The notes beneath the pieces are model-generated. The model was given only the letters and a program-made list of their open reading frames with translations, had not been told where the DNA came from and searched no databases. A stretch of 46,576 nt of DNA from a virus: the IMG/VR virus record IMGVR_UViG_3300025381_000024; one strand, given 5' to 3'. Within the stretch, counting starts at the first letter, position 1, and each line of letters begins with the position of its first letter. This document shows, one piece after another, positions 29,288 to 39,644 of this stretch. A program made the translations under genes and the position numbers.

Positions 29288-31579
29288 ATGTCTGATGTGA
29301 TGGTGAATAATACTTATCTGGGTGGTGAATTAATGAACCTGCTCAGTTCTGAGAATATCCAACCAGGTTCACAGGCAGGTTATGAATTATGCAAAATCAT
29401 TTGGGAATATCACCCATTAGGCGGTAAATTAGTTGAAAAGCCAGTTCGCTTGGCTCTTTCAAAACCCAGAATTATTACTGTAGATGCAGAACCAAAGGAA
29501 ATGTTGGTCGAGGCATTTCAAAAAGAATGGGAAAAATTAGGTGCTACTAATCATATTCGTGATGTTATGTTTATCAATCGCACTTATGGGGCTGGTGGAA
29601 TTGTTGTGGGTGCTGATAAGATTCCTACTACTGAGCCTATTGATCCTTGGCAGCTTCCTGATCTCAACATTTATTTTAATCAGTTAGACCCATTAAACAT
29701 GGCTGGTTCGATTGTTACAAACCAGAACCCAAATGCGCCAGACTTTCAAAAACCTCTTGCATACACTACTGCTGCTGGTCAGCCTTATCATCCTAGCCGT
29801 AGCGTGGTGGTATTCAATGGCACTCCTATCTACTTGTCTTTCCAATCTAGTGCTTTCGGCTATACAGGTCGAAGTGTGTTTCAAAGGGCATTGTATCCAT
29901 TAAAGTCTTTTGTTCAGTCGATGATTACCGATGACCTGGTGACTTTTAAATCAGGTCTGATTATTGCCAAGCAAAAACCTGCTGGGTCTATTGTCAATCG
30001 CTTAATGCAAACTGCTGCTGGTATTAAGCGCACTTATTTGCAAGAAGGCGGTACTGGCAATGTGCTATCAATTGATATTGATGAAGAAATCAACTCCATT
30101 GATTTGACCAATACTGCAACTGCAATGACAACTGCCAGAGATAACATCATTGCCAATATTGCTGCTGCTTCCGATGTCCCTGCAATGCTACTCAAAGATG
30201 AAGCATTTACTCAAGGCTTTGGTGAAGGTACTGAAGATGCAAAAGCCATTGTCCAGTACATTGATGGCATTCGAGTTGACATGGAATCTTTGTTCCGATT
30301 CTTTGACAAGATCGTAATGCACCGAGCCTGGAATAAAGAATTATTTGAATCTATTCAATCTGCCTATCCAGAGCAATATGGCAAGATGACCTATGAGCAA
30401 GCATTCTATTCATGGAAAAATGCTTTCAAACCTGAGTGGGAATCACTCATGGAAGAACCGCCAAGCGAAAAAGTCAAAGTTGATGACATTAAGCTAAAAG
30501 GTGTTACTGAAGTACTTCGTACAATGCTGCCAGTTATTGATCCACAAAATAGAGCAAATTTAATTCAATGGGCTGCTGACAATTTGAATGAAATGCCAGA
30601 TATGTTCCAAAGTTCTATGCAATTGGATGCTGATGCAATCGCTGAATATGAAATTCCAGAACAAGAACTTAAAAACTTACCTAGATTGGATGCTTATTTT
30701 GCAAAGGGGGATTGGGCAAACCCCACCCCAAAAGCTGATGCTTTCATAGAACAAGACCATCCCAGGGATGCGGATGGAAAATTTACTGCTGGCGCAGGTA
30801 GTAGCGCAGCAACCACTACTATGCCTGGTGGTCGAGCACAAGCCCCATATACTGTGGCAGCTAAATCTATTCCACAACCACCAGAGCCACCAAAGGCAGC
30901 AAATAAACCTACAGCAGCAGAGCCACCTAAAGTTCCAACCGCCAAAAGCGCAAAAGAGCATTTAGAAGGAAAGTTGCAAAAGAAAGATGTAGATCGCTTA
31001 CCAAAAGAAAAACGCAAAGAATTTGAAGAAATGTACCAAAGGGCTGCCCAAAACAAAAACAAGTTTGATGAGACCAATGCCCAGATCGCTAAAGAACTTG
31101 GTGGTAAAGCTGCGGTTGTGCCACTCAAGGGTTCAGAAAGAGCAGTTGATAAGATCACCAAGTCTTACAATAATGACCCATCCAAAATTAAAGATTTGCT
31201 CAGAACCACTATCGAGATTAATTCAGTAAAAGATGTGCCAAGTGCTATCGAGAAGATTAAAGCCCAATATGGTGAGCCAGCAAAATTAAGAAATCTTCTT
31301 GATCCTAATGTCGATTCATTAGCAGGGTCTGGATACCGAGACATCAATATGGTGGTTGAAGTCAATGGTTCTTATGCTGAGATTCAAGTAAATATGCCCC
31401 AGATGCTAGAAGCAAAAGAAAAAGGGCATAAGTACTATGAAGAAGTTCGTATTATTGTCGAGGATGCTGAAGTTCAAAAAAGACCATTAACTGCTGATGA
31501 GCAGGAAAAGGTTAATGCAGCCAACAATAAGATGAAAGAACTTTATGATGCTGCCTGGGAATCCATCACCAAAGCCTGA
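29288..31579 (+). CDS. Portal protein fused to a C-terminal RelA/SpoT-like nucleotidyltransferase domain
   Basis: The ~480-aa N-terminal core is portal-like by position after terL and by size. It is followed by HPRDADGKF, a Pro/Ala/Lys-rich linker, and a C-terminal domain with PLKGSERAVDKI, DLLRTTIEI, SGYRDINMVV and AEIQVNM...GHKYYE. Confidence 0.7.
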   Translation: MSDVMVNNTYLGGELMNLLSSENIQPGSQAGYELCKIIWEYHPLGGKLVEKPVRLALSKPRIITVDAEPKEMLVEAFQKEWEKLGATNHIRDVMFINRTYGAGGIVVGADKIPTTEPIDPWQLPDLNIYFNQLDPLNMAGSIVTNQNPNAPDFQKPLAYTTAAGQPYHPSRSVVVFNGTPIYLSFQSSAFGYTGRSVFQRALYPLKSFVQSMITDDLVTFKSGLIIAKQKPAGSIVNRLMQTAAGIKRTYLQEGGTGNVLSIDIDEEINSIDLTNTATAMTTARDNIIANIAAASDVPAMLLKDEAFTQGFGEGTEDAKAIVQYIDGIRVDMESLFRFFDKIVMHRAWNKELFESIQSAYPEQYGKMTYEQAFYSWKNAFKPEWESLMEEPPSEKVKVDDIKLKGVTEVLRTMLPVIDPQNRANLIQWAADNLNEMPDMFQSSMQLDADAIAEYEIPEQELKNLPRLDAYFAKGDWANPTPKADAFIEQDHPRDADGKFTAGAGSSAATTTMPGGRAQAPYTVAAKSIPQPPEPPKAANKPTAAEPPKVPTAKSAKEHLEGKLQKKDVDRLPKEKRKEFEEMYQRAAQNKNKFDETNAQIAKELGGKAAVVPLKGSERAVDKITKSYNNDPSKIKDLLRTTIEINSVKDVPSAIEKIKAQYGEPAKLRNLLDPNVDSLAGSGYRDINMVVEVNGSYAEIQVNMPQMLEAKEKGHKYYEEVRIIVEDAEVQKRPLTADEQEKVNAANNKMKELYDAAWESITKA

Positions 31580-31761
31580 AAAGCCGATGAATTAATTGGT
31601 AGCATAAAGACACCCTTCATATCAAAGGGTTGAGGTTCTCCATTGATCCAAGCTGCAACCATTGGAATACCATCACCAGCATTGACTGATACTGGATATT
31701 CATCTTCTGCTGTTACATAGAAAATAGCCGATGGACTAATCTCATATTTGCCTATTTGCAT
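31543..31761 (-). CDS. Hypothetical protein (72 aa from ATG 31761), convergent with and overlapping the portal 3' end
   Basis: An AAAGGAG Shine-Dalgarno sequence lies 5 nt before the second ATG (31761). A TGATACAAT extended -10-like sequence (minus strand, about 31780-31788) lies upstream. The 3' end overlaps the portal ORF by 37 nt. Confidence 0.5.
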   Translation of the reverse strand: MQIGKYEISPSAIFYVTAEDEYPVSVNAGDGIPMVAAWINGEPQPFDMKGVFMLPINSSAFQALVMDSQAAS

Positions 31762-31813
31762 ATAGACTCCTTTCATTAAATTGTATCATACATCTACCCC
31801 TATAGGATAGAGC

Positions 31814-31838
31814 AAAAAGCCCACAAGGGGCTTATTTT
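31814..31838 (-). terminator. Rho-independent terminator of the leftward island operon (hairpin flanked by A and T runs, so possibly bidirectional)
   Basis: The minus strand reads AAGCCC-CTTGT-GGGCTT followed by TTTG. On the plus strand it is preceded by AAAAA. Confidence 0.6.
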
Positions 31839-32028
31839 AATAGCGATTCTTTAATAATCTTTTTGCTGCTGCCAGGCGAAGATCATCCGCTTCAGAATTA
31901 AGACCAGGCAAAATAGATAATGCTCGAATCATATTCTTTAATGCAACTTTGTCAGAATTGCCAGCAATTCGCAAATCCGCATACTTCGCAGGATTATTAA
32001 TTTTCAAATCTTCATAATAGCTAGACAT
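31837..32028 (-). CDS. Hypothetical protein (63 aa), island
   Basis: The CACGAAAGG leader (32037-32045, minus strand) lies 8 nt upstream of the ATG. Confidence 0.6.
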   Translation of the reverse strand: MSSYYEDLKINNPAKYADLRIAGNSDKVALKNMIRALSILPGLNSEADDLRLAAAKRLLKNRY

Positions 32029-32046
32029 TTTATTTCCCTTTCGTGG

Positions 32047-32277
32047 TTATCTTGGAATTTCCAAAATCATATTGCCATCCATGATTTCAAACAAAATCGC
32101 TTTGGCTCTGTTCAAACTCTGTCTGGCTCTTTCATTCGCACCCACAGCCAATTCCTCTTGAGCATCACTCATAAGACCAGCAACAACAATACCAGCCCCA
32201 CCCAACTTGTAGCTGGCTGATGATCTGATCTGCGCTATAAACTGCTCAATGTCGCAACCATACATTTCCTGACTCAT
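32047..32277 (-). CDS. Small protein, paralogue of 19501-19746
   Basis: 76 aa. About 55-60% identical by eye to the early-operon copy, with an invariant MSDAQEE.AVG..ERARQSLNRAK core. Confidence 0.7.
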   Translation of the reverse strand: MSQEMYGCDIEQFIAQIRSSASYKLGGAGIVVAGLMSDAQEELAVGANERARQSLNRAKAILFEIMDGNMILEIPR

Positions 32278-32420
32278 GCTGCACCCCTTTCTTGAAATTG
32301 CTGGATAACTGCCCTAGCAGCAGCAGCCCTGCCCATTTGACCTTTTGCCAAAGCCAAAATCAAAATCCCCTGGGCTTGGGCAATACTGAAAACCTCGTAT
32401 CCATACAAAGACAAACTCAT
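32274..32420 (-). CDS. Small Ala-rich protein (48 aa), first gene of the leftward island operon
   Basis: MSLSLYGYEVFSIAQAQGILILALAKGQMGRAAAARAVIQQFQERGAA. The CACGAAAGG leader lies 8 nt upstream. The stop overlaps the next ATG. Confidence 0.5.
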   Translation of the reverse strand: MSLSLYGYEVFSIAQAQGILILALAKGQMGRAAAARAVIQQFQERGAA

Positions 32421-32455
32421 TTCAAACTCCTTTCGTGATTAACTACTACACTTAC

Positions 32456-32484
32456 ATATTAATACTTATTAGGTATAAGCACAA
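32456..32484 (-). promoter_or_regulatory. Leftward island promoter (TTGTGC-17 nt-TAATAT)
   Basis: The minus strand reads TTGTGCTTATACCTAATAAGTATTAATATGTAAGTGTAGTAGTTAATCACGAAAGGAGTTTGAAATG. Confidence 0.55.
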
Positions 32485-32540
32485 GGACTATTTCACTATT
32501 TGTTGTATTTGTGCAAAAACAACACTTTAGATAAATAGAT

Positions 32541-32569
32541 TTGACACCTATACTAAATAGGAATAATAT
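32541..32569 (+). promoter_or_regulatory. Rightward island promoter (TTGACA-17 nt-TAATAT)
   Basis: A consensus -35, a 17-nt spacer and a good -10, followed by the leader ...GTAGTCTTAATTAACCACGAAAGGG and ATG 32609. Confidence 0.65.
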
Positions 32570-32608
32570 AAGAATGTAGTCTTAATTAACCACGAAAGGG
32601 AATTAAAA

Positions 32609-32782
32609 ATGCAGATCGACCAAGCCATTGCAATTATTGAGGAATATCGCCAGGACTGTGGAATTGGGTTCTTGGAAGCCTTGATTGAAATTCGTCAGAA
32701 TCCAGAGGAATTTAGCGAGCAGCAATTGATCGCTTATCGGGTTTTTATGAATGATGCTCGTCAGATGTTTCAACCAGCTTGA
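32609..32782 (+). CDS. Hypothetical protein (57 aa), island
   Basis: MQIDQAIAIIEEYRQDCGIGFLEALIEIRQNPEEF... The CACGAAAGG leader lies 9 nt upstream. It is below the ORF-track cutoff. Confidence 0.55.
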   Translation: MQIDQAIAIIEEYRQDCGIGFLEALIEIRQNPEEFSEQQLIAYRVFMNDARQMFQPA

Positions 32783-32791
32783 GGGGGTTTT

Positions 32792-32989
32792 ATGAATTTA
32801 TTGATTGCTGAAAAAGTTGGCGGTTCTTTTCAAAAAATCGGTGTCATGAATGGCGATGAGTTGCTTGCAGATTGTTTGCTTGCTGTCGGTCTTGCCTACA
32901 ATGCCAAAAGGTTTTTTGAAGGAGATTCGGCAGCAGTTTCTCTGGATTATCAGTTAGAGGGTATTGAGTACAGAGTTTTAAAGTTTTAA
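32792..32989 (+). CDS. Hypothetical protein (65 aa), island
   Basis: A GAGGGGG Shine-Dalgarno sequence lies upstream. The gene is compactly placed. Confidence 0.55.
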   Translation: MNLLIAEKVGGSFQKIGVMNGDELLADCLLAVGLAYNAKRFFEGDSAAVSLDYQLEGIEYRVLKF

Positions 32990-33015
32990 GTAGTTCAACC
33001 ACGAAAGGAGTTGTT

Positions 33016-33258
33016 ATGAAATACCAATTAGATGTTAGTCGTGATGTAGATGCGGATGACGATGCCTATATGCTCTGGCTGCCATTCGGCTTTAGATTTT
33101 CAGATGATTTAGTTCATGTTCGAGGTTTTGACACTATGGCTGAGATTCGTCAAGCTGCCAAAAATGATGTTATTCCCTGCGATTGTGAAGATTGCAAGTT
33201 GAATATCAAAGAATTGGCTGCCAAGAAAGCATCTTTTATGAAGGAAATGCTGAAGTAG
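33016..33258 (+). CDS. Hypothetical protein (80 aa), island
   Basis: The CACGAAAGG leader (33000-33008) lies 7 nt upstream of the ATG. Confidence 0.6.
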   Translation: MKYQLDVSRDVDADDDAYMLWLPFGFRFSDDLVHVRGFDTMAEIRQAAKNDVIPCDCEDCKLNIKELAAKKASFMKEMLK

Positions 33259-33265
33259 CAAAAAT

Positions 33266-33290
33266 GCAACAACCCTAAAAAAGTTGTTGC
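33266..33290 (+). promoter_or_regulatory. 8-bp hairpin GCAACAAC-(9 nt)-GTTGTTGC overlapping the -35 of the next promoter
   Basis: Read directly. It is not followed by a T run, so it is not a classical terminator. Confidence 0.35.
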
Positions 33291-33314
33291 ATTAATACCT
33301 AATAGGTATATACT
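33287..33314 (+). promoter_or_regulatory. Rightward island promoter (TTGCAT-16 nt-TATACT)
   Basis: It is followed by GAAAGTGTAGTAATTAACCACGAAAGGAAAATTATG. The ATACCTAATAGGTAT and GTGTAGTA.TTAA.CACGAAAGG segments are shared with the 32456 promoter unit on the other strand. Confidence 0.55.
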
Positions 33315-33347
33315 GAAAGTGTAGTAATTAACCACGAAAGGAAAATT

Positions 33348-33680
33348 ATGAAAGAAGTTGAAATCTGGGCTGGCAAAAAAGTCATGGCATACCAGGATGC
33401 TGACTTGGTTGAAAAAATGCCCTATATCAAAGCTGCTGAGTCTGTCTGGTATCAAAGCTGGTTGGACAATGGCGGTGAGGATGTCGGTAGCTGCTGCGGT
33501 GGCAAAGCGATTCGGATTTACTACTTGGGCAAAGGAAAAAGAAATGTTGTAGAAAAAAGCATTGTGCCTTGTAGCTTTGTTCAGGGAAATGTGGCTGCTG
33601 CGAAATCAGTTGCTCCTGCTTTGGAATTCTTGGCTGCTCATGGGATTGTCGGTGAGTATTACGATGGTTGGATGGATTGA
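33348..33680 (+). CDS. Hypothetical protein (110 aa), island
   Basis: The CACGAAAGG leader lies 6 nt upstream. Confidence 0.6.
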   Translation: MKEVEIWAGKKVMAYQDADLVEKMPYIKAAESVWYQSWLDNGGEDVGSCCGGKAIRIYYLGKGKRNVVEKSIVPCSFVQGNVAAAKSVAPALEFLAAHGIVGEYYDGWMD

Positions 33681-33685
33681 TTAAT

Positions 33686-33699
33686 GCCCCTTCGGGGGC
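33686..33699 (+). promoter_or_regulatory. GCCCC-UUCG-GGGGC tetraloop hairpin (copy 1), fused to the CACGAAAGG leader
   Basis: ATGCCCCTTCGGGGGCTTCACGAAAGGAAT. There is no T run, so it is more likely a processing, stability or attenuation element than a terminator. Confidence 0.5.
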
Positions 33700-33717
33700 T
33701 TCACGAAAGGAATCAAA

Positions 33718-33969
33718 ATGGCAATGGCTTATAAAGAAATGGTTGTGTTTGCGAAATATGTTTATAGCTTCTATGGCGATGGCGGTATTTATGATATGGG
33801 AGTTCCCTATGAAATCATTAAGCAAGCTATCCGCTTTTTGCAATCAAAGGATGGTCGCAAGTATCGCTACGGTATTCCTGTGTGTGGCGATTCTGTAGAT
33901 CGTGAGCATATTCGCATGATCTTGGAAGAAGAATATGGGTATTGTGAAAAAAAGCTACAAGCTGCTTGA
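33718..33969 (+). CDS. Hypothetical protein (83 aa), island
   Basis: The leader CACGAAAGG lies 7 nt upstream. Confidence 0.6.
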   Translation: MAMAYKEMVVFAKYVYSFYGDGGIYDMGVPYEIIKQAIRFLQSKDGRKYRYGIPVCGDSVDREHIRMILEEEYGYCEKKLQAA

Positions 33970-33993
33970 CATTATCCTAAATTAGTATATTAT
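33966..33993 (+). promoter_or_regulatory. Rightward island promoter (TTGACA-16 nt-TATTAT)
   Basis: A consensus -35 overlaps the stop of the previous gene. It is followed by ...GTTGTAGTG... and the AAGGAG Shine-Dalgarno sequence of ATG 34035. Confidence 0.5.
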
Positions 33994-34034
33994 TAAGTTG
34001 TAGTGTTTATTAATCATCAAATAAGGAGTTAATC

Positions 34035-34532
34035 ATGGGTTCAATTAGTAGTCATGCTGGTGCTGCCAAAATGGTTCGCCAGTTTATGAAAGCCAAAGGC
34101 ATCGCTGGTCAAGTTCGCAGCAAAAGCTATAGCATGGGTAGCAGCATTCATGTGTATGTTCAGGATTTGCCCCCAGCGCAATATGCTGAGTTGAGCAGCT
34201 ATGTCAGTCAGTTTGAGTATGGTCACTTCAATGGCATGGAAGATATTTATGAGATCAGCAATCGCAGGGATGACATTCCCCAAGTGAAATATGCCTTTGT
34301 TGACAATAAAATGAGTGATGCCTTGGGTGAAAAGATTTACCAGTTCATGAAAGGATATTACTCTGGCATGGAAGGTGCTCCAGATAGTTTCAAAGATGCC
34401 CATAGTTTTTACAACATGAGATTCAATGGGTATGCAAGTCACTTGGTTTACAAGTTATTTGCTGGTGGTTATATGCACAATGAATATTGGATTTCAGTTG
34501 GTGTCATTGCTCCAGAAGTAGAAGCTGCTTAA
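34035..34532 (+). CDS. Hypothetical protein (165 aa), island
   Basis: Strong AAGGAG Shine-Dalgarno sequence. No motif I can name with confidence. Confidence 0.65.
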   Translation: MGSISSHAGAAKMVRQFMKAKGIAGQVRSKSYSMGSSIHVYVQDLPPAQYAELSSYVSQFEYGHFNGMEDIYEISNRRDDIPQVKYAFVDNKMSDALGEKIYQFMKGYYSGMEGAPDSFKDAHSFYNMRFNGYASHLVYKLFAGGYMHNEYWISVGVIAPEVEAA

Positions 34533-34537
34533 TTGAT

Positions 34538-34551
34538 GCCCCTTCGGGGGC
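34538..34551 (+). promoter_or_regulatory. GCCCC-UUCG-GGGGC tetraloop hairpin (copy 2), fused to a CATGAAAGG leader variant
   Basis: ATGCCCCTTCGGGGGCTTTCCATGAAAGGGAAT, a near-repeat of 33683-33712. Confidence 0.5.
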
Positions 34552-34571
34552 TTTCCATGAAAGGGAATAGT

Positions 34572-34748
34572 ATGATAGATAAATTTTTAACTTTAGAAAA
34601 TGCCAAGGCTTATGCTGCAACTCAGGACAAATTGCTATTTTGCGAATATTTGACAGACTTGCCATTCCAAAGCAAAGCATTAGAAAAGTTTGAATATGAA
34701 ATGTTTGTGTTTGCCCTTAATTTAGGACTTGTATCAGAAGATGACTAA
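34572..34748 (+). CDS. Hypothetical protein (58 aa from ATG 34572), island
   Basis: ATG 34572 lies 6 nt after the AAAGGG leader. The upstream in-frame extension in the ORF track would run through the hairpin. Confidence 0.5.
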   Translation: MIDKFLTLENAKAYAATQDKLLFCEYLTDLPFQSKALEKFEYEMFVFALNLGLVSEDD

Positions 34749-34950
34749 AACTAGAAAAAGGGGTGGTCTTGGTACTACCCCAAAACCAGAAGAAATTATT
34801 GCAGCCAGGGCTGCATTATCTCAATCCAAAGCTGCATCTTTAATATATACTACCCAAGCAAGATGGTCAGATTATGAAACTGGCAAAAGTCGTATGCACC
34901 CTGCTGCCTGGGAACTATTTTTATTAAAGATACAGAATGACATTTTTTGA
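34741..34950 (+). CDS. XRE-type helix-turn-helix protein (69 aa)
   Basis: LSQSKAASLIYTTQARWSDYETGKSRMHPAAWELFLL fits the HTH_XRE pattern (q..aA.l.g.s...is.wE.G.r.p). It overlaps both neighbours. Confidence 0.6.
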   Translation: MTKTRKRGGLGTTPKPEEIIAARAALSQSKAASLIYTTQARWSDYETGKSRMHPAAWELFLLKIQNDIF

Positions 34951-35737
34951 AGTTCTTACTGCTGCCATTAATGACTTTATTGAATATGGCTTTGATTCTC
35001 AAAGTCGAGTAGACAATTGGCTTAAAAAGATTAAAGAAGCAGCAGAAAAGGCTTTGATGTCAGAAGCCCAGATGCAAAAAGAAATGGAAAAGTCTTTAAA
35101 TGCAGCCTTTTCTCGCCTGGTGACTAAAGGCGGTCTAGTCAATAAAGAAGTATCCAAATATGACATTGACCGATTAAAGCCAAAACTTAGGTCTGAACTA
35201 GATCGCAGAATCATGGCTTCTGCAAACTTGATTAAATACAATCGAGAGCAAAGTATTACAGATGTGCTCAGAAGATTTGAAGGTTGGGCTACATCCATTC
35301 CTAAAGGCGGTTCACTCGCAGTAGACCGCAATAAAGAAAAACAAAATATTAAAAAGTCTTTAGCAAAAATGCCTTTTAATCAAAGGCGAGTTGTAATAGA
35401 TCAAACCCATAAATTGATTTCTAACATTAATGATATTGTCGCTGTTGATAATGGCGCAATTGCTGGTAAATGGCATTCTCATTGGAAACAAATTAATTAT
35501 GATTACCGCAAAGATCATAAAGAAAGGGATGAAAAGGTTTATGTCATTAGAGGTAATTGGGCAAGCGAAAAAGGATTTATTAAAGCCACTAATGGATATA
35601 CTGATGACATTACCACTCCAGGTGAAGAAGTATACTGTCGCTGTTATTACAAATATATTTACAGTTTGCGAAAGATGCCTGAAGAAATGCTTACAAAAAA
35701 AGGCAAACTAGCGTTACAATCGTCAAAAATACTGTAA
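34937..35737 (+). CDS. MuF / SPP1 gp7-like minor head (head morphogenesis) protein
   Basis: The C-terminal GKWHSHW...TPGEEVYCRCYYKYIY resembles the P..H.NCRC end of the MuF family. 266 aa, at the head of the capsid-assembly genes. Confidence 0.7.
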   Translation: MTFFEVLTAAINDFIEYGFDSQSRVDNWLKKIKEAAEKALMSEAQMQKEMEKSLNAAFSRLVTKGGLVNKEVSKYDIDRLKPKLRSELDRRIMASANLIKYNREQSITDVLRRFEGWATSIPKGGSLAVDRNKEKQNIKKSLAKMPFNQRRVVIDQTHKLISNINDIVAVDNGAIAGKWHSHWKQINYDYRKDHKERDEKVYVIRGNWASEKGFIKATNGYTDDITTPGEEVYCRCYYKYIYSLRKMPEEMLTKKGKLALQSSKIL

Positions 35738-35746
35738 GGTAGTTTT

Positions 35747-37957
35747 ATGCCATTTAAGTCGGAACAACAAAGAAAAGCTATGTATGCTGCATTGGCAGGA
35801 CATAGCAACATTGGAATTCCTAAAGAAGTGGCTAAAAAATTCATCAAACACAGCGAAGATGATTCTGGTGATTTCCCAGAAAAAGCTACTCCACTCAGCA
35901 CTCCAGAATTTAAAGAAGATGATGAAATCGTCATTCGTGCTGGCAAAAAAGATGAATTAAAGAAATTTCAAGGTGATTTAGCTGATGTAGCTAAAATCAT
36001 CCAAGGTCTTAAAGACCAATCTCAAACAGTACCTAGATTTGGTCAAGATGCTGACCCTTGCTGGGAAGGCTATAAACAAGTTGGCATGAAAGAAAAAGAT
36101 GGCAAAGAAGTACCAAATTGTGTGCCAGATGCTGCTGATCTAGTAGCTAAAACCCCAGAATTAGTTGCTCCAATTGCTAATAATGCTGGTGCAGCAGGTC
36201 GGGCTTCTGGAATCATGTTTGTTACTGGTGAAGGTCATACTTTATTAATTCGCAGAGGTTCAGGCGGTGGCGATTATCCTAATACCTGGTGTGTGCCAGG
36301 CGGTCATCAAAAAGAAGGCGAAACTTTAGAAGAAGCTGCTCGCAGAGAAACTAAAGAAGAAACTGGCATTGACTATAAGGGTAAATTAGAAGTATTACAC
36401 GATGATGGTCAATTCTGCACCTACATTGCTAGAGATGTAAAAAAAGAAGAAGTCAAACTCAATTATGAGTCTACTGGCTATGATTGGTGCGATCCGCTTT
36501 GCCCACCTTTGCCATTACATCCTGGTTTAGAAGTTGCATTCAAAATTGCATCCTCTAAGACTGAGACCGATGTTGCTCAGTTAATGGCTGATAACCTTAT
36601 TCCAAGTCCACAAATGTATGCCAATATCATGTTATTGGCTATCCGCATTACTGGTACTGGATTGGCTTATCGGTCAAGCATTGGCGAGAATGTCTGGAGA
36701 GACCCATCACTTTATCTAAATGATGAGTTCTTAAAAAGATGTAATGGATTAATGGTCATTATGGATCATCCAGATTCTGCGGTTCTTACTTCTAAGGAAT
36801 TTAAAAATCGTGCAGTAGGAAGTATTATGCTTCCTTATATTAAAGGTGATGAAGTCTGGGGCATCGCTAAAATCTATGACCAAGATGCTGTAAATGAAAT
36901 TTGTGAGGGAGAGATTTCTACCTCACCTTCAGTAGTATTTGACAATACTGCTGGAAACACTACACTAACTACTGAGAATGGCGAGCCACTCTTAATAGAA
37001 GGTGTTCCATTTCTTTTAGACCATATAGCTATCGTTACGAAAGCTAGAGGGTCTAGAGGTGTATGGGATAAGGGTGGCGATGCCACAGGAGTTCTTTTAA
37101 ATAACCAAGAGGTGTCTGATATGAATGACAATACTATTGCACCAAAGGCAGATGCCCAAGGTGATAAGTTGGATGCTGTACTCGCTGTACTAGGCGATTT
37201 GGCTGCAAGAATGGATGCGATGGAGAAGGAATTACCTGCTCCACCATTAGTTACTGCTGCTGATAAAAAGCGCAAAGATGATGACTCAAAACATCGTAAA
37301 GACGATGATGATGAGGAAGAAGAAGAAATGGCTAAAAAAGATGATGATGATGAGTCTGAATCTGAAGCTAAAGCCTATATGATGCGTAAAGCTGACAAGA
37401 AGCGTAAAGATGCAGAAGGTTCTGATCCAAAAGAACATGGCAAAGCTGGCGAAATCAAGCCTGATGATGAAGGCATGGTTGAACATCCTGGTCACATGGA
37501 ATTCAAAAAAGATGACGATGATGAGGAAGAAGAAGCAATGCGTAAAGATGAAGAAGAAGCTGCAATGTGCGATGCACAAGCTAAAGCTGATTCTGTTTAT
37601 GCTTCCTTCGGTAAATCTGCTTCTCGCCCATTAAAAGGCGAAGTTCTATTGTCTTATCGCAAGCGTTTGTTGCGTGGTCTCCAAGCCTATTCTGATAGCT
37701 ACAAGTCAGTAAACTTGGCTTCTATCAAAGATGCACAATTGTTAAATATTGCTGAAAAGCAAATTTTTAATGATGCTTTGATGGCTGCTAAATCACCAAC
37801 TATGTTCGCCCCAGATCAATTGATTGAAATTCATGAAAAAGATCGTGCTGGTCGTACAATCACGAAATTCAAAGGCGCAATGGAAGCATGGCTAGGTGAC
37901 TTTAAAGTTCCTTCTATGCGAGTCAAAGAATTTCATCTTTTCAACAATAAGCGATAA
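35747..37957 (+). CDS. Polyprotein: N-terminal conserved phage motifs, a Nudix hydrolase domain, a scaffold/prohead-protease-like region, and a highly charged scaffold-like C-terminus
   Basis: A perfect Nudix box GHQKEGETLEEAARRETKEETGI (GX5EX7REUXEEXGU) lies at 36302-36370. It sits in the position between MuF and the capsid genes. It has long acidic/basic runs (KDDDDEEEEEMAKKDDDDESESE and KKDDDDEEEEAMRKDEEE). Confidence 0.7.
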   Translation: MPFKSEQQRKAMYAALAGHSNIGIPKEVAKKFIKHSEDDSGDFPEKATPLSTPEFKEDDEIVIRAGKKDELKKFQGDLADVAKIIQGLKDQSQTVPRFGQDADPCWEGYKQVGMKEKDGKEVPNCVPDAADLVAKTPELVAPIANNAGAAGRASGIMFVTGEGHTLLIRRGSGGGDYPNTWCVPGGHQKEGETLEEAARRETKEETGIDYKGKLEVLHDDGQFCTYIARDVKKEEVKLNYESTGYDWCDPLCPPLPLHPGLEVAFKIASSKTETDVAQLMADNLIPSPQMYANIMLLAIRITGTGLAYRSSIGENVWRDPSLYLNDEFLKRCNGLMVIMDHPDSAVLTSKEFKNRAVGSIMLPYIKGDEVWGIAKIYDQDAVNEICEGEISTSPSVVFDNTAGNTTLTTENGEPLLIEGVPFLLDHIAIVTKARGSRGVWDKGGDATGVLLNNQEVSDMNDNTIAPKADAQGDKLDAVLAVLGDLAARMDAMEKELPAPPLVTAADKKRKDDDSKHRKDDDDEEEEEMAKKDDDDESESEAKAYMMRKADKKRKDAEGSDPKEHGKAGEIKPDDEGMVEHPGHMEFKKDDDDEEEEAMRKDEEEAAMCDAQAKADSVYASFGKSASRPLKGEVLLSYRKRLLRGLQAYSDSYKSVNLASIKDAQLLNIAEKQIFNDALMAAKSPTMFAPDQLIEIHEKDRAGRTITKFKGAMEAWLGDFKVPSMRVKEFHLFNNKR

Positions 37958-37967
37958 GGAATAAGCC

Positions 37968-38603
37968 ATGACCGCACAAATCTCTTTACAACCTATGGTA
38001 ACAACTGTAGCTAGTGGTTTATTTAACACTAATAGCAATGGTTTTACTCAAGGTGATGCGCTAGATGATCCAGCAGTTAAGTTTGCTTTGGCATCTGGTA
38101 CTTTATCAACTGCTGCAACAACTCCTTTGTGGGGTGGTGTACCTATTACTGAGTTGATCCCAACTTTGCAAAATGGTTACTATTCACAACCACAACCAGG
38201 TACTGATACATTAGGTGGAACAGTTGTTCAAGCTGGTGTTTCTTCTGCTCCTACTGGAATTGCTGTATATAACCAGGCATTTGGTGGTATTACAACTCCA
38301 CAAAGCACAGCACCTTTGTTCTCACCTGGTATGTCTGTAAACTTCTACCGCTTTGGTAGTGGTGCTCGTATTCCATTGCCTTGCGATTCTTCAGTCGTAG
38401 CCTTGGATGGTTCATCCATTACTGAAACTGTATACTGGGACACTACCAATTTGTTATTGACTACAACTGCTACAAGCAATTTTGCTGTACCTTGCAAAAT
38501 TCTTCGCACAAGTACTGCCAACAATAAGTTAGTATCGTATTCAAGCGGTACTGGTAATGCTAACTGGACTTCAACTGGCTTTATTGCAGTTGTTCAAATC
38601 TAA
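37968..38603 (+). CDS. Capsid-associated structural protein (decoration or auxiliary capsid protein), putative
   Basis: 211 aa between the scaffold and major capsid genes. Assigned by position only. Confidence 0.5.
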   Translation: MTAQISLQPMVTTVASGLFNTNSNGFTQGDALDDPAVKFALASGTLSTAATTPLWGGVPITELIPTLQNGYYSQPQPGTDTLGGTVVQAGVSSAPTGIAVYNQAFGGITTPQSTAPLFSPGMSVNFYRFGSGARIPLPCDSSVVALDGSSITETVYWDTTNLLLTTTATSNFAVPCKILRTSTANNKLVSYSSGTGNANWTSTGFIAVVQI

Positions 38604-38618
38604 CAAAGGAAAAATATT

Positions 38619-39644
38619 ATGTCAGGTTTTGCTCCTTCATTTGTAACAGTAAATCCGCATTACATGATGCCTGAGTTGATTATGCAATACAGCTTGGCTT
38701 CAGGTGCTTTTACTACCCTTGCTACAGAAAATCCAATGCCTCGCCTTGGCGAAGCGGATTTGTATGTTTATGCTAAAAAGATTCAGTTGACAACTCAGGT
38801 TTCAGCTAATCAATCTACAGCTAATCAACTGCCTAGCGCATCTGTAATTCCTTCAATGATCTCGACTGCAACTTATCGTCTGCAAACTCGTGCTCAGTAT
38901 GACAACTTCGATGAAGCTGCTACTGGCGCATGGGGCTATGCGCTGCCACAAGCAATGCGCCTGGCTGCTCGCCAAGGTATTGCTCAACAATTGCGTAATG
39001 CGCTTTTGTATGGCTACAACCCTGCAAATGGCGAAGGTCTAGTAAACACCAATGGTGCTACCCATCAAGTTTTGGGTTCAGACACTAATGGCAATACTGG
39101 CTATAGCACATGGGATAGCGGTCAACTTGCTCAATACCTATTGAACATGATTGGCAGCTTGAAAGTGTCTACTTTGCAAATCGGTCAACCTTTGCGCTTA
39201 GTTTTCCTTGCTCCACAGCGATTCATTAGCCAAATCAGCTACTCTGGTGTAGTGTCATTGACACAATTCCAGCGTATCGGTGCTGGTGTTGAAACTGCTG
39301 CTGGCTTGGTCGAAACTGTTGCTCAATGGGCAGGTGGCGATGATGTATCTTTCGCTGCTGATGACACTTTGATCGGTCAAGGTGCTGGTGGTACAGATTT
39401 GATCCTTTTAATTGCTCCAGAATTGAAGATTCCTAAAGCAAATGCTCAAATCAATACCAACATTTTTGCAACATTGACACCTAATCAGACAGCAACTTCA
39501 TTGATGCTTACTGATGTGTCTGCTCCTACTGAAATCCCTACTCCTATTGCTGATGGTGGTATTACTACCCTCTACACTATGCGTAGCACTTCAGGTTGGG
39601 GTATTCGCCCAGAAGCAATCAGCCTTTTGTCTGCTGCTTACTAA
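38619..39644 (+). CDS. Major capsid protein
   Basis: 341 aa with a strong AAAGGA Shine-Dalgarno sequence, the last gene of the head block, followed by a strong terminator as expected for the most abundant late product. Confidence 0.75.
   Translation: MSGFAPSFVTVNPHYMMPELIMQYSLASGAFTTLATENPMPRLGEADLYVYAKKIQLTTQVSANQSTANQLPSASVIPSMISTATYRLQTRAQYDNFDEAATGAWGYALPQAMRLAARQGIAQQLRNALLYGYNPANGEGLVNTNGATHQVLGSDTNGNTGYSTWDSGQLAQYLLNMIGSLKVSTLQIGQPLRLVFLAPQRFISQISYSGVVSLTQFQRIGAGVETAAGLVETVAQWAGGDDVSFAADDTLIGQGAGGTDLILLIAPELKIPKANAQINTNIFATLTPNQTATSLMLTDVSAPTEIPTPIADGGITTLYTMRSTSGWGIRPEAISLLSAAY

What the first reader, a model, noticed from the sequence alone, without database searches (positions are those of the whole stretch)
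35747..37957. Nudix hydrolase domain embedded in the capsid scaffold/prohead-protease polyprotein
The 736-aa gene sits between MuF and the capsid genes, the slot normally held by the scaffold or protease. It contains a textbook Nudix box, GHQKEGETLEEAARRETKEETGI (36302-36370, residues ~186-208), inside a Nudix-sized domain (GIMFVTGEGHTLLIRRG...WCVPGG...).

The box is preceded by small conserved phage motifs (MPFKSEQQRKAMYAALAG and CWEGYKQVGMKEKDGKEVPNCVP). It is followed by a protease/scaffold-like region and extreme acidic/basic runs.

A catalytic Nudix module physically tied to a capsid-internal assembly protein suggests the enzyme is packaged in the procapsid, and possibly ejected or released on maturation. 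Nudix enzymes hydrolyse (p)ppGpp, NAD/ADP-ribose and RNA 5' caps or triphosphates. Possible roles therefore include partnering with the portal RSH-like domain, decapping or processing host RNA on entry, or removing defence-signalling nucleotides. I do not know of a described scaffold-Nudix fusion.
Basis: partly seen in the sequence, partly recalled or inferred. Interest (0 to 1): 0.75.

Follow-up and report, generated by a model that had tools for sequence, protein, structure and literature searches.

The report
Nudix enzyme fused to capsid protease-scaffold
This phage gene joins an apparently active Nudix nucleotide-hydrolysing enzyme to the capsid-maturation protease and scaffold, probably to load the enzyme into the virus head, but this kind of fusion and that idea are already published and remain untested.

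Summary
ORF 35747-37957 (736 aa) contains a Nudix domain (Pfam E = 3.7e-16) whose catalytic box is invariant in 50 homologues.

The downstream PF09979/DUF2213 domain is an assemblin/T4-gp21-like prohead protease by fold. It has invariant His341, Ser393 and His426.

The C-terminal 278 aa is a scaffold. It starts at an invariant Met459 behind a conserved GAGGTG. In 15 of 80 related loci it is a separate gene starting at that same ATG. The window gene is therefore a protease gene fused in frame to a scaffold gene, keeping the internal start, as in lambda C/Nu3 and herpesvirus UL26/UL26.5.

The fusion is not new. PHROG 6216 covers it, and cultured phages (Chronis, PdC23, RothC/D) carry it annotated as "NUDIX hydrolase". 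Iyer et al. [quoted passage not shown]

In other phages the same N-terminal slot also carries Acb1 or PBECR1, which supports a counter-defence cargo role. Substrate, cleavage and delivery are unshown. The link to the portal's Tas1-like domain is not general.

The parts
35747..37957 (+). Full-length ORF (736 aa): N-terminal motifs + Nudix + prohead protease + scaffold
   Evidence: ORF listing and translation. phrog_6216 covers residues 153-729, E = 2.8e-155. More than 1500 homologues, mostly with PF09979 + PF00293.
35747..36187 (+). Variable N-terminal extension (res 1-147). It has a helical MPFKSEQQRKAMYAALAG motif (res 1-37) and a CWEGY...PNCVP motif (res 105-127, 36059-36127). It is absent in cultured relatives, and some relatives carry a DUF6321 insertion.
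   Evidence: Alignments A1 and A3. Pfam on variants. Lowest conservation and coverage of all segments. No Pfam family found.
36188..36556 (+). Nudix hydrolase domain (res 148-270), ending in a conserved LPLHPG motif
   Evidence: Pfam E = 3.7e-16. pLDDT about 90. Foldseek returns Nudix hydrolases only. The family profile's best PDB hit is RenU 6uuf, E = 1.4e-13. T4 NudE, E = 1e-6.
36302..36370 (+). Nudix box GX5EX7REUXEEXGU (res 186-208)
   Evidence: Read directly from the sequence. G186, R200, E201, E204 and E205 are invariant in 50 homologues.
36557..37081 (+). PF09979 (DUF2213 / Pa193_gp24) domain (res 271-445). It has the assemblin/T4 gp21-like prohead serine protease fold. Candidate catalytic residues are His341 (36767-36769), Ser393 (36923-36925) and His426 (37022-37024).
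   Evidence: Pfam E = 2.5e-8. AF2 pLDDT 84. Foldseek PDB top hits are T4 gp21 5jbl (prob 0.99) and herpes proteases. BFVD returns prohead proteases, E down to 1e-9. His, Ser and His are invariant.
37109..37114 (+). Internal Shine-Dalgarno GAGGTG, 6 nt upstream of the Met459 ATG
   Evidence: It is conserved in 23 of 24 unique contexts, against 3.7% of control in-frame ATGs. The Glu codon is always GAG although GAA is preferred about 4:1.
37121..37957 (+). Nested co-C-terminal scaffold ORF (Met459-Arg736, 278 aa). It comprises a coiled-coil helix (res 473-494), a charged low-complexity linker (about res 505-598) and a conserved C-terminal domain (res 599-736).
   Evidence: Met459 is invariant. 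The same ATG starts an independent 250-285 aa gene in 15 related loci. The C-terminal domain is homologous to the separate 334-aa gene in L010, E = 4e-28. C-terminal pLDDT is about 85.
34937..35737 (+). Upstream MuF-like head morphogenesis gene (context)
   Evidence: phrog_324, E = 5.6e-26.
37968..39644 (+). Downstream 211-aa protein (possibly decoration-like) and major capsid protein (context)
   Evidence: phrog_6268, phrog_6671 and phrog_264; weak Pfam Phage_cement_2 and Major_capside hits. The same gene order is seen in relatives.

Best explanation
The gene encodes a capsid-assembly protein with an enzymatic passenger. It yields two co-C-terminal products.

1. A minor long form (736 aa): N-terminal extension, catalytically intact Nudix hydrolase, assemblin-type prohead serine protease, then scaffold.
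2. A major short form (278 aa): the scaffold alone, initiated at Met459 behind its own Shine-Dalgarno.

The shared scaffold C-terminus co-assembles with the major capsid protein. This draws the protease and its attached Nudix domain into the procapsid interior. The same logic operates in herpesvirus UL26/UL26.5 and lambda C/Nu3.

On maturation the protease is expected to cut scaffold and itself. This would free a Nudix-containing fragment inside the head, which would be ejected with the DNA, or act at the moment of entry. There it would hydrolyse a nucleoside-diphosphate-X compound. The most likely substrates are ADP-ribose- or NAD(H)-derived defence metabolites or signals.

Shown here:
- the domain identities;
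- conservation of the catalytic residues;
- the nested start, and the fact that it is a real start in relatives;
- modular exchange of the N-terminal cargo.

Inferred:
- incorporation of the long form into procapsids;
- cleavage;
- retention or ejection;
- substrate.

The confidence given (0.6) is for the whole chain. The architecture alone I put at about 0.9, the nested start at about 0.75, and delivery to the next host with an ADPR/NAD-type substrate at about 0.4.
For: - **Nudix.** Pfam E = 3.7e-16. Box residues are invariant. The model is confident and has Nudix-only structural neighbours.
- **Protease.** Foldseek matches T4 gp21 and herpes assemblins, and BFVD returns prohead proteases. 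phrog_2229 gives E = 1.9e-5. His341, Ser393 and His426 are invariant. hhalign puts DHP on gp21 NHP(85).
- **Scaffold and nested start.** Met459 is invariant, with an SD in 23/24 contexts against 3.7% of controls, and GAG is fixed against codon bias. 15 of 80 loci are split at exactly that ATG. A separate homologous scaffold-slot gene exists in L010.
- **Capsid-internal location of the family.** Pa193 gp24 was detected in virions by LC-MS, and a fragment was seen under the five-fold vertices.
- **Cargo logic.** About four-fifths of the multi-domain representatives of this Nudix subfamily are fused to DUF2213. Others are fused to portal C-termini. The same N-terminal slot carries Nudix+Acb1 or PBECR1+Nudix in other phages.
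- **Published precedent.** The same inference is in PMC9503650.
- **Substrate lead.** The nearest characterised relatives, RenU (with activities) and T4 NudE, both act on ADP-ribose, FAD and NADH.
Against: - No proteomic or biochemical data exist for any Nudix-DUF2213 protein.
- No cleavage site could be predicted.
- The Pa193 authors could not tell whether gp24 is cleaved, and they did not identify it as a protease.
- In the split relatives, the Nudix-protease lacks the scaffold C-terminus and must enter the procapsid some other way.
- No Nudix subfamily assignment reaches any NCBIfam cut-off.
- The proline I recall as diagnostic of ADP-ribose pyrophosphatases, 15-16 residues after the box, is absent (F223/C224).
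- The fold match to gp21 has modest scores (E = 3e-3, TM 0.33-0.44).
- hhalign against single sequences is not significant.
Confidence: 0.6

Rival explanations
1. The Nudix domain works in the cytoplasm of the producing cell late in infection and is not delivered to the next host. Fusion to the protease merely couples it to late expression. It would remove nucleotide-derived defence signals or toxic nucleotides that appear when structural proteins accumulate. In this phage that could include (p)ppApp made by the portal's Tas1-like domain.
For: - The portal C-terminus matches the (p)ppApp synthetase toxin Tas1, E = 2.6e-16, so a detoxifying hydrolase would be useful.
- Prohead proteases are reported triggers of CBASS (titles and abstracts listed).
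- Nothing shown here demonstrates packaging.
Against: - The Nudix fusion is widespread in phages whose portals lack any such domain.
- The same Nudix subfamily is fused repeatedly to capsid-interior proteins in particular: the protease N-terminus and the portal C-terminus. A purely cytoplasmic role does not require this.
- The nearest characterised Nudix enzymes are ADPR/FAD/NADH hydrolases, not alarmone hydrolases.
Confidence: 0.22
2. The Nudix domain is a regulatory or structural pro-domain of the protease. It might be a nucleotide-sensing or inhibitory module that keeps the protease inactive until assembly, and would not be a catalytic effector.
For: - It sits directly N-terminal to the protease.
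- Nudix folds can serve as ligand sensors. NrtR-type regulators are mentioned in PMC9503650.
Against: - All metal-binding and catalytic box residues are invariant.
- The domain is dispensable: Rac-SA53, pPE4, L086 and many prophages lack it yet keep the protease and scaffold.
- It is interchangeable or combinable with bona fide enzymes such as Acb1 and PBECR1.
Confidence: 0.06
3. The Nudix domain is a MutT-like housekeeping enzyme. It would sanitise the nucleotide pool (8-oxo-dGTP and similar) for phage DNA replication, and its fusion to the protease is incidental.
For: - Source annotations call homologues '8-oxo-dGTP pyrophosphatase MutT'.
- There are weak hits to MutT, NudI and NudG.
Against: - All MutT-type models score far below their cut-offs (25.7 bits against 97.9).
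- Late, structural-module expression and fusion to a capsid-internal protein fit poorly with a replication-phase role.
- The domain co-occurs with conflict-related domains.
Confidence: 0.05

Closest known systems
Phage Nudix fusions to head proteins described by Iyer, Burroughs, Anantharaman and Aravind 2022 (Viruses 14:1977, PMC9503650). Cultured examples: Klebsiella phage vB_Kpn_Chronis gp4, Pantoea phage PdC23 pdc_04, Klebsiella phages RothC/RothD, Yersinia vB_YenM phages (PHROG 6216).
   Same: - The same architecture (Nudix + capsid-processing serine peptidase / DUF2213 + C-terminal domain) sits in the same slot between the MuF-like and capsid genes.
- The same proposed role: packaged into the head and injected.
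   Different: - The window protein has an extra 147-aa N-terminal extension with the MPxKS and CWxGY motifs.
- It is only 39-43% identical to the cultured examples.
- The nested scaffold start and the fused/split polymorphism were not found described in the papers read.
Pseudomonas phage Pa193 gp24 (namesake of PF09979; PDB 9B40)
   Same: - The same Pfam family, in the same slot upstream of the decoration and capsid genes.
- Shown experimentally to be in virions and bound to the capsid interior.
   Different: - gp24 has no Nudix domain.
- It was interpreted only as a scaffold; the protease fold was not noted.
- Homology of its residues 286-326 helix-turn-helix to the window protein was not established here.
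Herpesvirus UL26/UL26.5 (assemblin-scaffold), lambda C/Nu3 and P2 gpO
   Same: - A protease is fused in frame to a scaffold.
- A nested, co-C-terminal scaffold product comes from an internal start.
- The scaffold C-terminus targets the protease into the procapsid.
- The protease fold is assemblin-like.
- The details of those systems are from my own knowledge.
   Different: - None of those carries an unrelated enzyme on the protease N-terminus.
- Lambda C belongs to a different protease family.
T4 head-packaged proteins (Alt, IPI-III), loaded into the prohead and trimmed by gp21
   Same: The concept is the same: effector proteins loaded into the prohead, processed by the prohead protease and injected with the DNA (background in PMC5512222).
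   Different: In T4 the cargo uses a short capsid-targeting sequence and is separate from the protease. Here the cargo is covalently part of the protease polypeptide.
T4 NudE and mycobacterial RenU (Nudix hydrolases acting on ADP-ribose, FAD and NADH)
   Same: They are the nearest characterised Nudix relatives. RenU matches the family profile at E = 1.4e-13 and shares the C-terminal LPLHPG motif. T4 NudE gives a pairwise E = 1e-6.
   Different: - Both are stand-alone proteins.
- Identity is only about 25-31%.
- Substrate transfer is therefore a lead, not a result.

Membership tests
Nudix hydrolase superfamily (PF00293) | Nudix box GX5EX7REUXEEXGU with the catalytic Glu residues | tested here: met
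   Residues 186-208 fit the box, with Thr at one U position. R200, E201, E204 and E205 are invariant. Pfam score is 59.8 bits against a 21.1 cut-off.
Nudix hydrolase superfamily (PF00293) | Alpha/beta/alpha Nudix fold | tested here: met
   AF2 pLDDT is about 90 for residues 150-270. The top 50 Foldseek PDB hits are all Nudix-fold proteins, prob 1.00.
Nudix hydrolase superfamily (PF00293) | Mg/Mn-dependent hydrolysis of an NDP-X substrate | not testable with these tools
   Needs an enzyme assay.
ADP-ribose/FAD/NADH-type Nudix (T4 NudE clade; RenU) | Specific sequence relationship to characterised members | tested here: inconclusive
   RenU is the best PDB hit of the family profile (E = 1.4e-13). 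T4 NudE gives E = 1e-6 over 84 aa. MutT, NudI, NUDX1 and Ap4A hydrolases score similarly, and no NCBIfam equivalog is reached.
ADP-ribose/FAD/NADH-type Nudix (T4 NudE clade; RenU) | Pro about 15-16 residues downstream of the box (the ADPRase rule, recalled from memory) | tested here: not met
   Positions +15 and +16 are F223 and C224. An aromatic residue at +15 is conserved instead.
Assemblin/HK97/T4-gp21-type prohead serine proteases | Assemblin-like fold | tested here: met
   The model has pLDDT 84. Top PDB hits are T4 gp21 5jbl (prob 0.99, E = 3e-3), then EBV, PRV, HCMV, HSV and KSHV proteases. There are 139 BFVD hits at E <= 1e-3, many named prohead protease. TM-scores are modest (0.3-0.45).
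Assemblin/HK97/T4-gp21-type prohead serine proteases | Conserved catalytic His and Ser, in the order His...Ser(...His) | tested here: met
   H341, S393 (with S391) and H426 are invariant across A1, A2 and A3. hhalign places DHP(341) on gp21 NHP(85), although the alignment itself is not significant.
Assemblin/HK97/T4-gp21-type prohead serine proteases | Match to a curated protease HMM (Peptidase S21/S77/S78/S80) | tested here: not met
   The only Pfam hit is PF09979, even at E <= 10. PHROG 2229 'head maturation protease' does match, E = 1.9e-5.
Assemblin/HK97/T4-gp21-type prohead serine proteases | Proteolytic processing of scaffold or capsid | not testable with these tools
   Needs biochemistry or proteomics.
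PF09979 (DUF2213 / Pa193_gp24) | HMM score above the gathering threshold | tested here: met
   34.6 bits against 22, residues 314-435.
Protease-scaffold genes with a nested scaffold (UL26/UL26.5, lambda C/Nu3 logic) | In-frame internal start with a ribosome-binding site, giving a co-C-terminal scaffold | tested here: met
   The ATG is at 37121 behind GAGGTG. It is conserved in 23/24 contexts against 3.7% of controls. The same ATG starts a separate gene in 15 split loci. Actual initiation in this phage was not tested.
Virion-packaged effector fusions ('polyvalent'/head-protein fusions, Iyer 2017/2022) | Effector enzyme domain fused to a head-internal protein in the morphogenesis module | tested here: met
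.
Virion-packaged effector fusions ('polyvalent'/head-protein fusions, Iyer 2017/2022) | Physical presence of the effector in virions and delivery to the host | not testable with these tools
   Only family-level evidence exists, for Nudix-less Pa193 gp24.

The most novel reading that the evidence does not exclude
The N-terminus of DUF2213-type prohead proteases may be a general, exchangeable loading dock. It would carry counter-defence enzymes (Nudix, Acb1, PBECR1 and others) into procapsids. The protease would then free them by self-cleavage, and they would be delivered with the genome as a first-strike toolkit.

In this particular phage the dock would work alongside a portal-borne Tas1-like (p)ppApp synthetase. 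The virion would then inject a nucleotide-toxin synthetase together with a Nudix hydrolase that shapes or limits the nucleotide pool it creates.
Probability: 0.25. Interest if true: 0.7.

Novelty: new member of a known kind. Interest (0 to 1): 0.4.

Why it matters
Phage proteins injected with the DNA act before any phage gene is expressed. They are therefore the only way to pre-empt defences that fire at entry. Nudix enzymes could destroy ADP-ribose- or NAD-derived immune signals and toxic metabolites.

This family is abundant: hundreds of 50%-identity clusters, including gut Enterobacteriaceae phages that can be cultured. It has a defined architecture, so it offers a tractable system to test the published but unverified idea of capsid-delivered nucleotide hydrolases.

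The nested-start and split/fused polymorphism found here tell experimenters which products to expect and where to mutate. It also corrects database names for this gene, such as 'TolA protein', 'glycosyl transferase' and 'hypothetical'.

Tried and rejected
- **Near-identical DNA.** Megablast of the gene against 50,697 phage records found nothing. Only protein-level relatives exist.
- **First structure prediction.** Full-length AF2 with a shallow alignment (at least 58% identity) left DUF2213 at pLDDT 30-40. A deeper, domain-only alignment fixed this.
- **PDB sequence and profile searches.** These returned only Nudix chains and nothing for DUF2213.
- **hhalign.** The DUF2213 profile against single T4 gp21 and HK97 gp4 sequences was not significant (P = 0.09 and 0.7). 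Only the local His-motif register against gp21 was suggestive.
- **NCBIfam.** It gave no subfamily or substrate assignment.
- **Literature.** I found no experimental work on Nudix-protease fusions and no proteomics for Chronis, PdC23, RothC/D or the YenM phages. A search to document the gp21 catalytic residues found nothing, so those residue numbers rest on my own knowledge.
- **CWxGY...PNCVP motif.** Its context in Synechococcus phage BUCT-ZZ01 and Actinomycetia phage DSL-LC01 was uninformative beyond lying near the terminase and portal genes.
- **Portal partnership rejected.** I rejected 'Nudix is the obligate partner of the portal RSH/Tas1-like domain', because Nudix-bearing relatives have plain portals.
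- **Cleavage motif not pursued.** I considered the conserved (L/K)(N/T)E(T/L) motif at the Nudix-protease boundary as a gp21-like cleavage site. It is part of a confidently modelled helix of the protease domain, and it is also present at the N-terminus of the Nudix-less forms, so I did not pursue it.
Full report
**1. Observation**

Residues 186-208 (36302-36370) form a Nudix box that fits GX5EX7REUXEEXGU except for Thr202 at one hydrophobic position.

Pfam NUDIX matches residues 152-249 with E = 3.7e-16, at 59.8 bits against a cut-off of 21.1. In an alignment of 50 homologues, G186, R199, R200, E201, E204 and E205 are invariant; E192 is 48/50 and G207 is 49/50.

The AlphaFold model has pLDDT of about 90 over residues 150-270. 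Its 50 best Foldseek matches in the PDB are all Nudix-fold proteins.

The neighbours are as stated: a MuF-like head-morphogenesis gene upstream (phrog_324, E = 5.6e-26), then downstream a 211-aa protein and the major capsid protein.

**2. What the rest of the protein is**

Residues 314-435 match PF09979 (DUF2213; E = 2.5e-8) and PHROG 2229 'head maturation protease' (E = 1.9e-5).

The first full-length model left this domain unresolved. A deeper alignment of 56 more divergent homologues gave a confident model, with mean pLDDT 84 and pTM 0.71.
- Its best PDB matches are the T4 capsid assembly protease gp21 (5jbl; prob 0.99, E = 3e-3), followed almost exclusively by herpesvirus maturational proteases.
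- In BFVD, 139 viral models match at E <= 1e-3. Many are named prohead protease, capsid maturation protease or 'prohead core scaffolding protein and protease'.

His341, Ser393 (with Ser391) and His426 are invariant in all three alignments, down to 35% overall identity. Their His...Ser...His order is that of assemblin-type proteases. That order, and the gp21 catalytic residue numbers, are from my own knowledge.

A local hhalign run was not significant overall. It did place 'MDHP' on gp21 'NHP' (His85) and 'KGDEVWGIAKIY' on 'KGNDVYGRARVI'.

Current Pfam names PF09979 'Pa193_gp24'. In Pseudomonas phage Pa193, gp24 was detected in mature virions by LC-MS. Its residues 286-326 were built into cryo-EM density under the capsid five-fold vertices, and it was called a putative scaffolding protein (PMC11456595). 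This is direct evidence that the family is capsid-internal.

**3. A nested scaffold gene**

Met459 is invariant in 50 close homologues. It is also invariant in six distant ones from cultured phages, although it lies in a poorly conserved linker.

In the window it is preceded by GAGGTG at a 6-nt spacing. This is the best Shine-Dalgarno match in the gene, and better than those of the neighbouring genes' own starts. GAGG or AGGTGA occupies the same place in PdC23, Chronis, YenM, Rac-SA53 and pPE4.

I tested this in 80 related IMG/VR loci.
- 23 of 24 unique sequence contexts carry a 5-6-nt SD there, against 19 of 516 (3.7%) control in-frame ATGs.
- The Glu codon inside the SD is always GAG, although the gene uses GAA 53 times and GAG 13 times.
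- In 15 of the 80 loci the reading frame is split at exactly this point. ORF1 (N-terminus + Nudix + protease) ends '...NNEVSEND*' or '...NQEVS*'. A separate 250-285-aa ORF2 ('MTENKIEPKADAQGDKLD...') starts at that same ATG, overlapping or 1 nt after the stop, behind the same GAGGTG.

A more distant split system shows the order portal ... Nudix-protease (370 aa), a 334-aa gene, a 217-aa gene, then the major capsid gene. The 334-aa protein is homologous to the window's residues of about 599-734 (E = 4e-28).

The window gene is therefore a protease gene fused in frame to the scaffold gene, with the scaffold's own start retained. It is expected to give a long form and a more abundant short scaffold sharing one C-terminus. 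This is the arrangement known from herpesvirus UL26/UL26.5 and lambda C/Nu3 (my own knowledge).

**4. The Nudix module is an exchangeable passenger**

Four architectures occur:
- protease alone (about 220-250 aa);
- Nudix + protease (about 370 aa);
- protease + scaffold (about 390-440 aa, for example Rac-SA53 and pPE4);
- the full fusion (540-890 aa), with or without the N-terminal motifs and a DUF6321 insertion.

The Nudix segment is about as conserved as the scaffold C-terminal domain, at 70% against 72% mean identity to the window.

I ran an exhaustive search with the Nudix domain alone. It found 523 50%-identity clusters at E <= 1e-10. Among the 150 best, about 82 of roughly 100 multi-domain representatives also carry the DUF2213 protease. 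The rest include:
- portal proteins with a C-terminal Nudix (P0277, P0341);
- fusions with ADP-ribosyltransferase and Zeta-toxin domains.

Some of the DUF2213-positive representatives carry further enzymes in the N-terminal slot: Nudix + Acb1 + DUF2213 (P0364) and PBECR1 + Nudix + DUF2213 (P0339). Acb1 is the anti-CBASS nuclease, so the slot demonstrably hosts counter-defence enzymes.

**5. What is already known**

PHROG 6216 (function unknown) covers residues 153-729 at E = 2.8e-155. Cultured phages carry the same fusion in the same slot, as follows.
- vB_Kpn_Chronis gp4 and PdC23 pdc_04: annotated 'NUDIX hydrolase'.
- RothC and RothD: annotated hypothetical.
- The vB_YenM phages: misnamed 'glycosyl transferase'.

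Iyer et al. [quoted passage not shown]

The architecture and the hypothesis are thus published, but only computationally. I found no proteomic, enzymatic or genetic test.

**6. Substrate**

No NCBIfam equivalog is approached. The best PDB match of the family profile is RenU (E = 1.4e-13), with a shared C-terminal LPLHPG motif. RenU hydrolyses ADP-ribose, FAD and NADH (PMC4401782).

T4 NudE, annotated as active on FAD, ApnA, ADP-ribose and NADH, matches at E = 1e-6. This points to adenine-dinucleotide or ADP-ribose-type substrates, but weakly. MutT, NudI, NUDX1 and Ap4A hydrolases score similarly. The ADPRase proline rule, which I recall from memory, is not met.

**7. The portal link**

The portal's C-terminal extension (residues of about 575-712) matches the (p)ppApp synthetase toxin Tas1 at E = 2.6e-16. 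So this phage carries enzyme passengers on two capsid-interior proteins.

Nudix-bearing relatives have ordinary portals of 471-526 aa. A Nudix-RSH partnership therefore cannot be the general reason for the fusion. It is not excluded for this phage.

**8. Verdict**

- The architectural interpretation is supported and sharpened: the protease fold is assigned, and the scaffold is nested.
- Packaging is plausible and in line with the literature, but unshown.
- The novelty claim is not supported.

This is a new, divergent member of a known and abundant kind. Its value lies mainly in being a well-defined experimental target.

Noticed in passing
window 29288-31579 (portal); Tas1-like part about 31010-31423: The 763-aa portal protein has a C-terminal extension matching the T6SS (p)ppApp synthetase toxin Tas1 (PDB 6ox6; E = 2.6e-16, Tas1 residues 245-375). 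Pfam RelA_SpoT reaches only E = 0.0019. Portals of the cultured relatives lack this extension.
   Followed up: partly
window about 31543-34930: A 3.3-kb island of small ORFs interrupts the head module between the portal and the MuF-like gene. It includes three minus-strand ORFs (31543-32277). In cultured relatives the portal and MuF-like genes are adjacent.
   Followed up: no
P0364 and P0339 (from; architectures): Other phages carry Nudix + Acb1 (anti-CBASS) + DUF2213, or PBECR1 + Nudix + DUF2213, in one polypeptide. The protease N-terminus therefore accumulates several conflict-related enzymes.
   Followed up: partly
L013 6001-6666 and 10657-11973 (Pantoea agglomerans prophage, GCA_014839175.1): A 221-aa protease-domain-only paralogue (P0234) sits just upstream of the small terminase gene. 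The same prophage also has a full 438-aa DUF2213 protease-scaffold gene in the normal slot. The role of the second copy is unexplained.
   Followed up: no
Hits H13 and H14 (OK094664.1 and OP650936.1): Shewanella phage vB_Sb_QDWS and 'Hujiaoplasma phage zrk29-1' are both 47,902 bp and give identical match statistics. They are probably the same or nearly the same genome, deposited under two very different host names.
   Followed up: no
L002 5998-7290, L009 4998-6320, L007 4986-6617: Database names for this gene family are misleading. They include 'TolA protein' (Rac-SA53, pPE4; probably caused by the charged low-complexity linker) and 'glycosyl transferase' (Yersinia vB_YenM phages).
   Followed up: yes
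window 36059-36127 (res 105-127); L096 3501-3581; L097 3501-3611: The short CWxGY...G.EVPNCVP motif recurs at 70-78% identity in hypothetical proteins of unrelated phages (Synechococcus BUCT-ZZ01, Actinomycetia DSL-LC01), near their terminase and portal genes. It also recurs in several PHROGs of unknown function. Some relatives have a DUF6321 domain inserted beside it. Its function is unknown.
   Followed up: partly
window 37968-38603: The 211-aa protein between the scaffold and the major capsid gene has a weak Phage_cement_2 hit (E = 0.027). Its position matches that of the decoration gene in lambda (C/Nu3-D-E) and in Pa193 (gp24-gp25-gp26). PdC23 annotates its counterpart as 'endosialidase'.
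   Followed up: no
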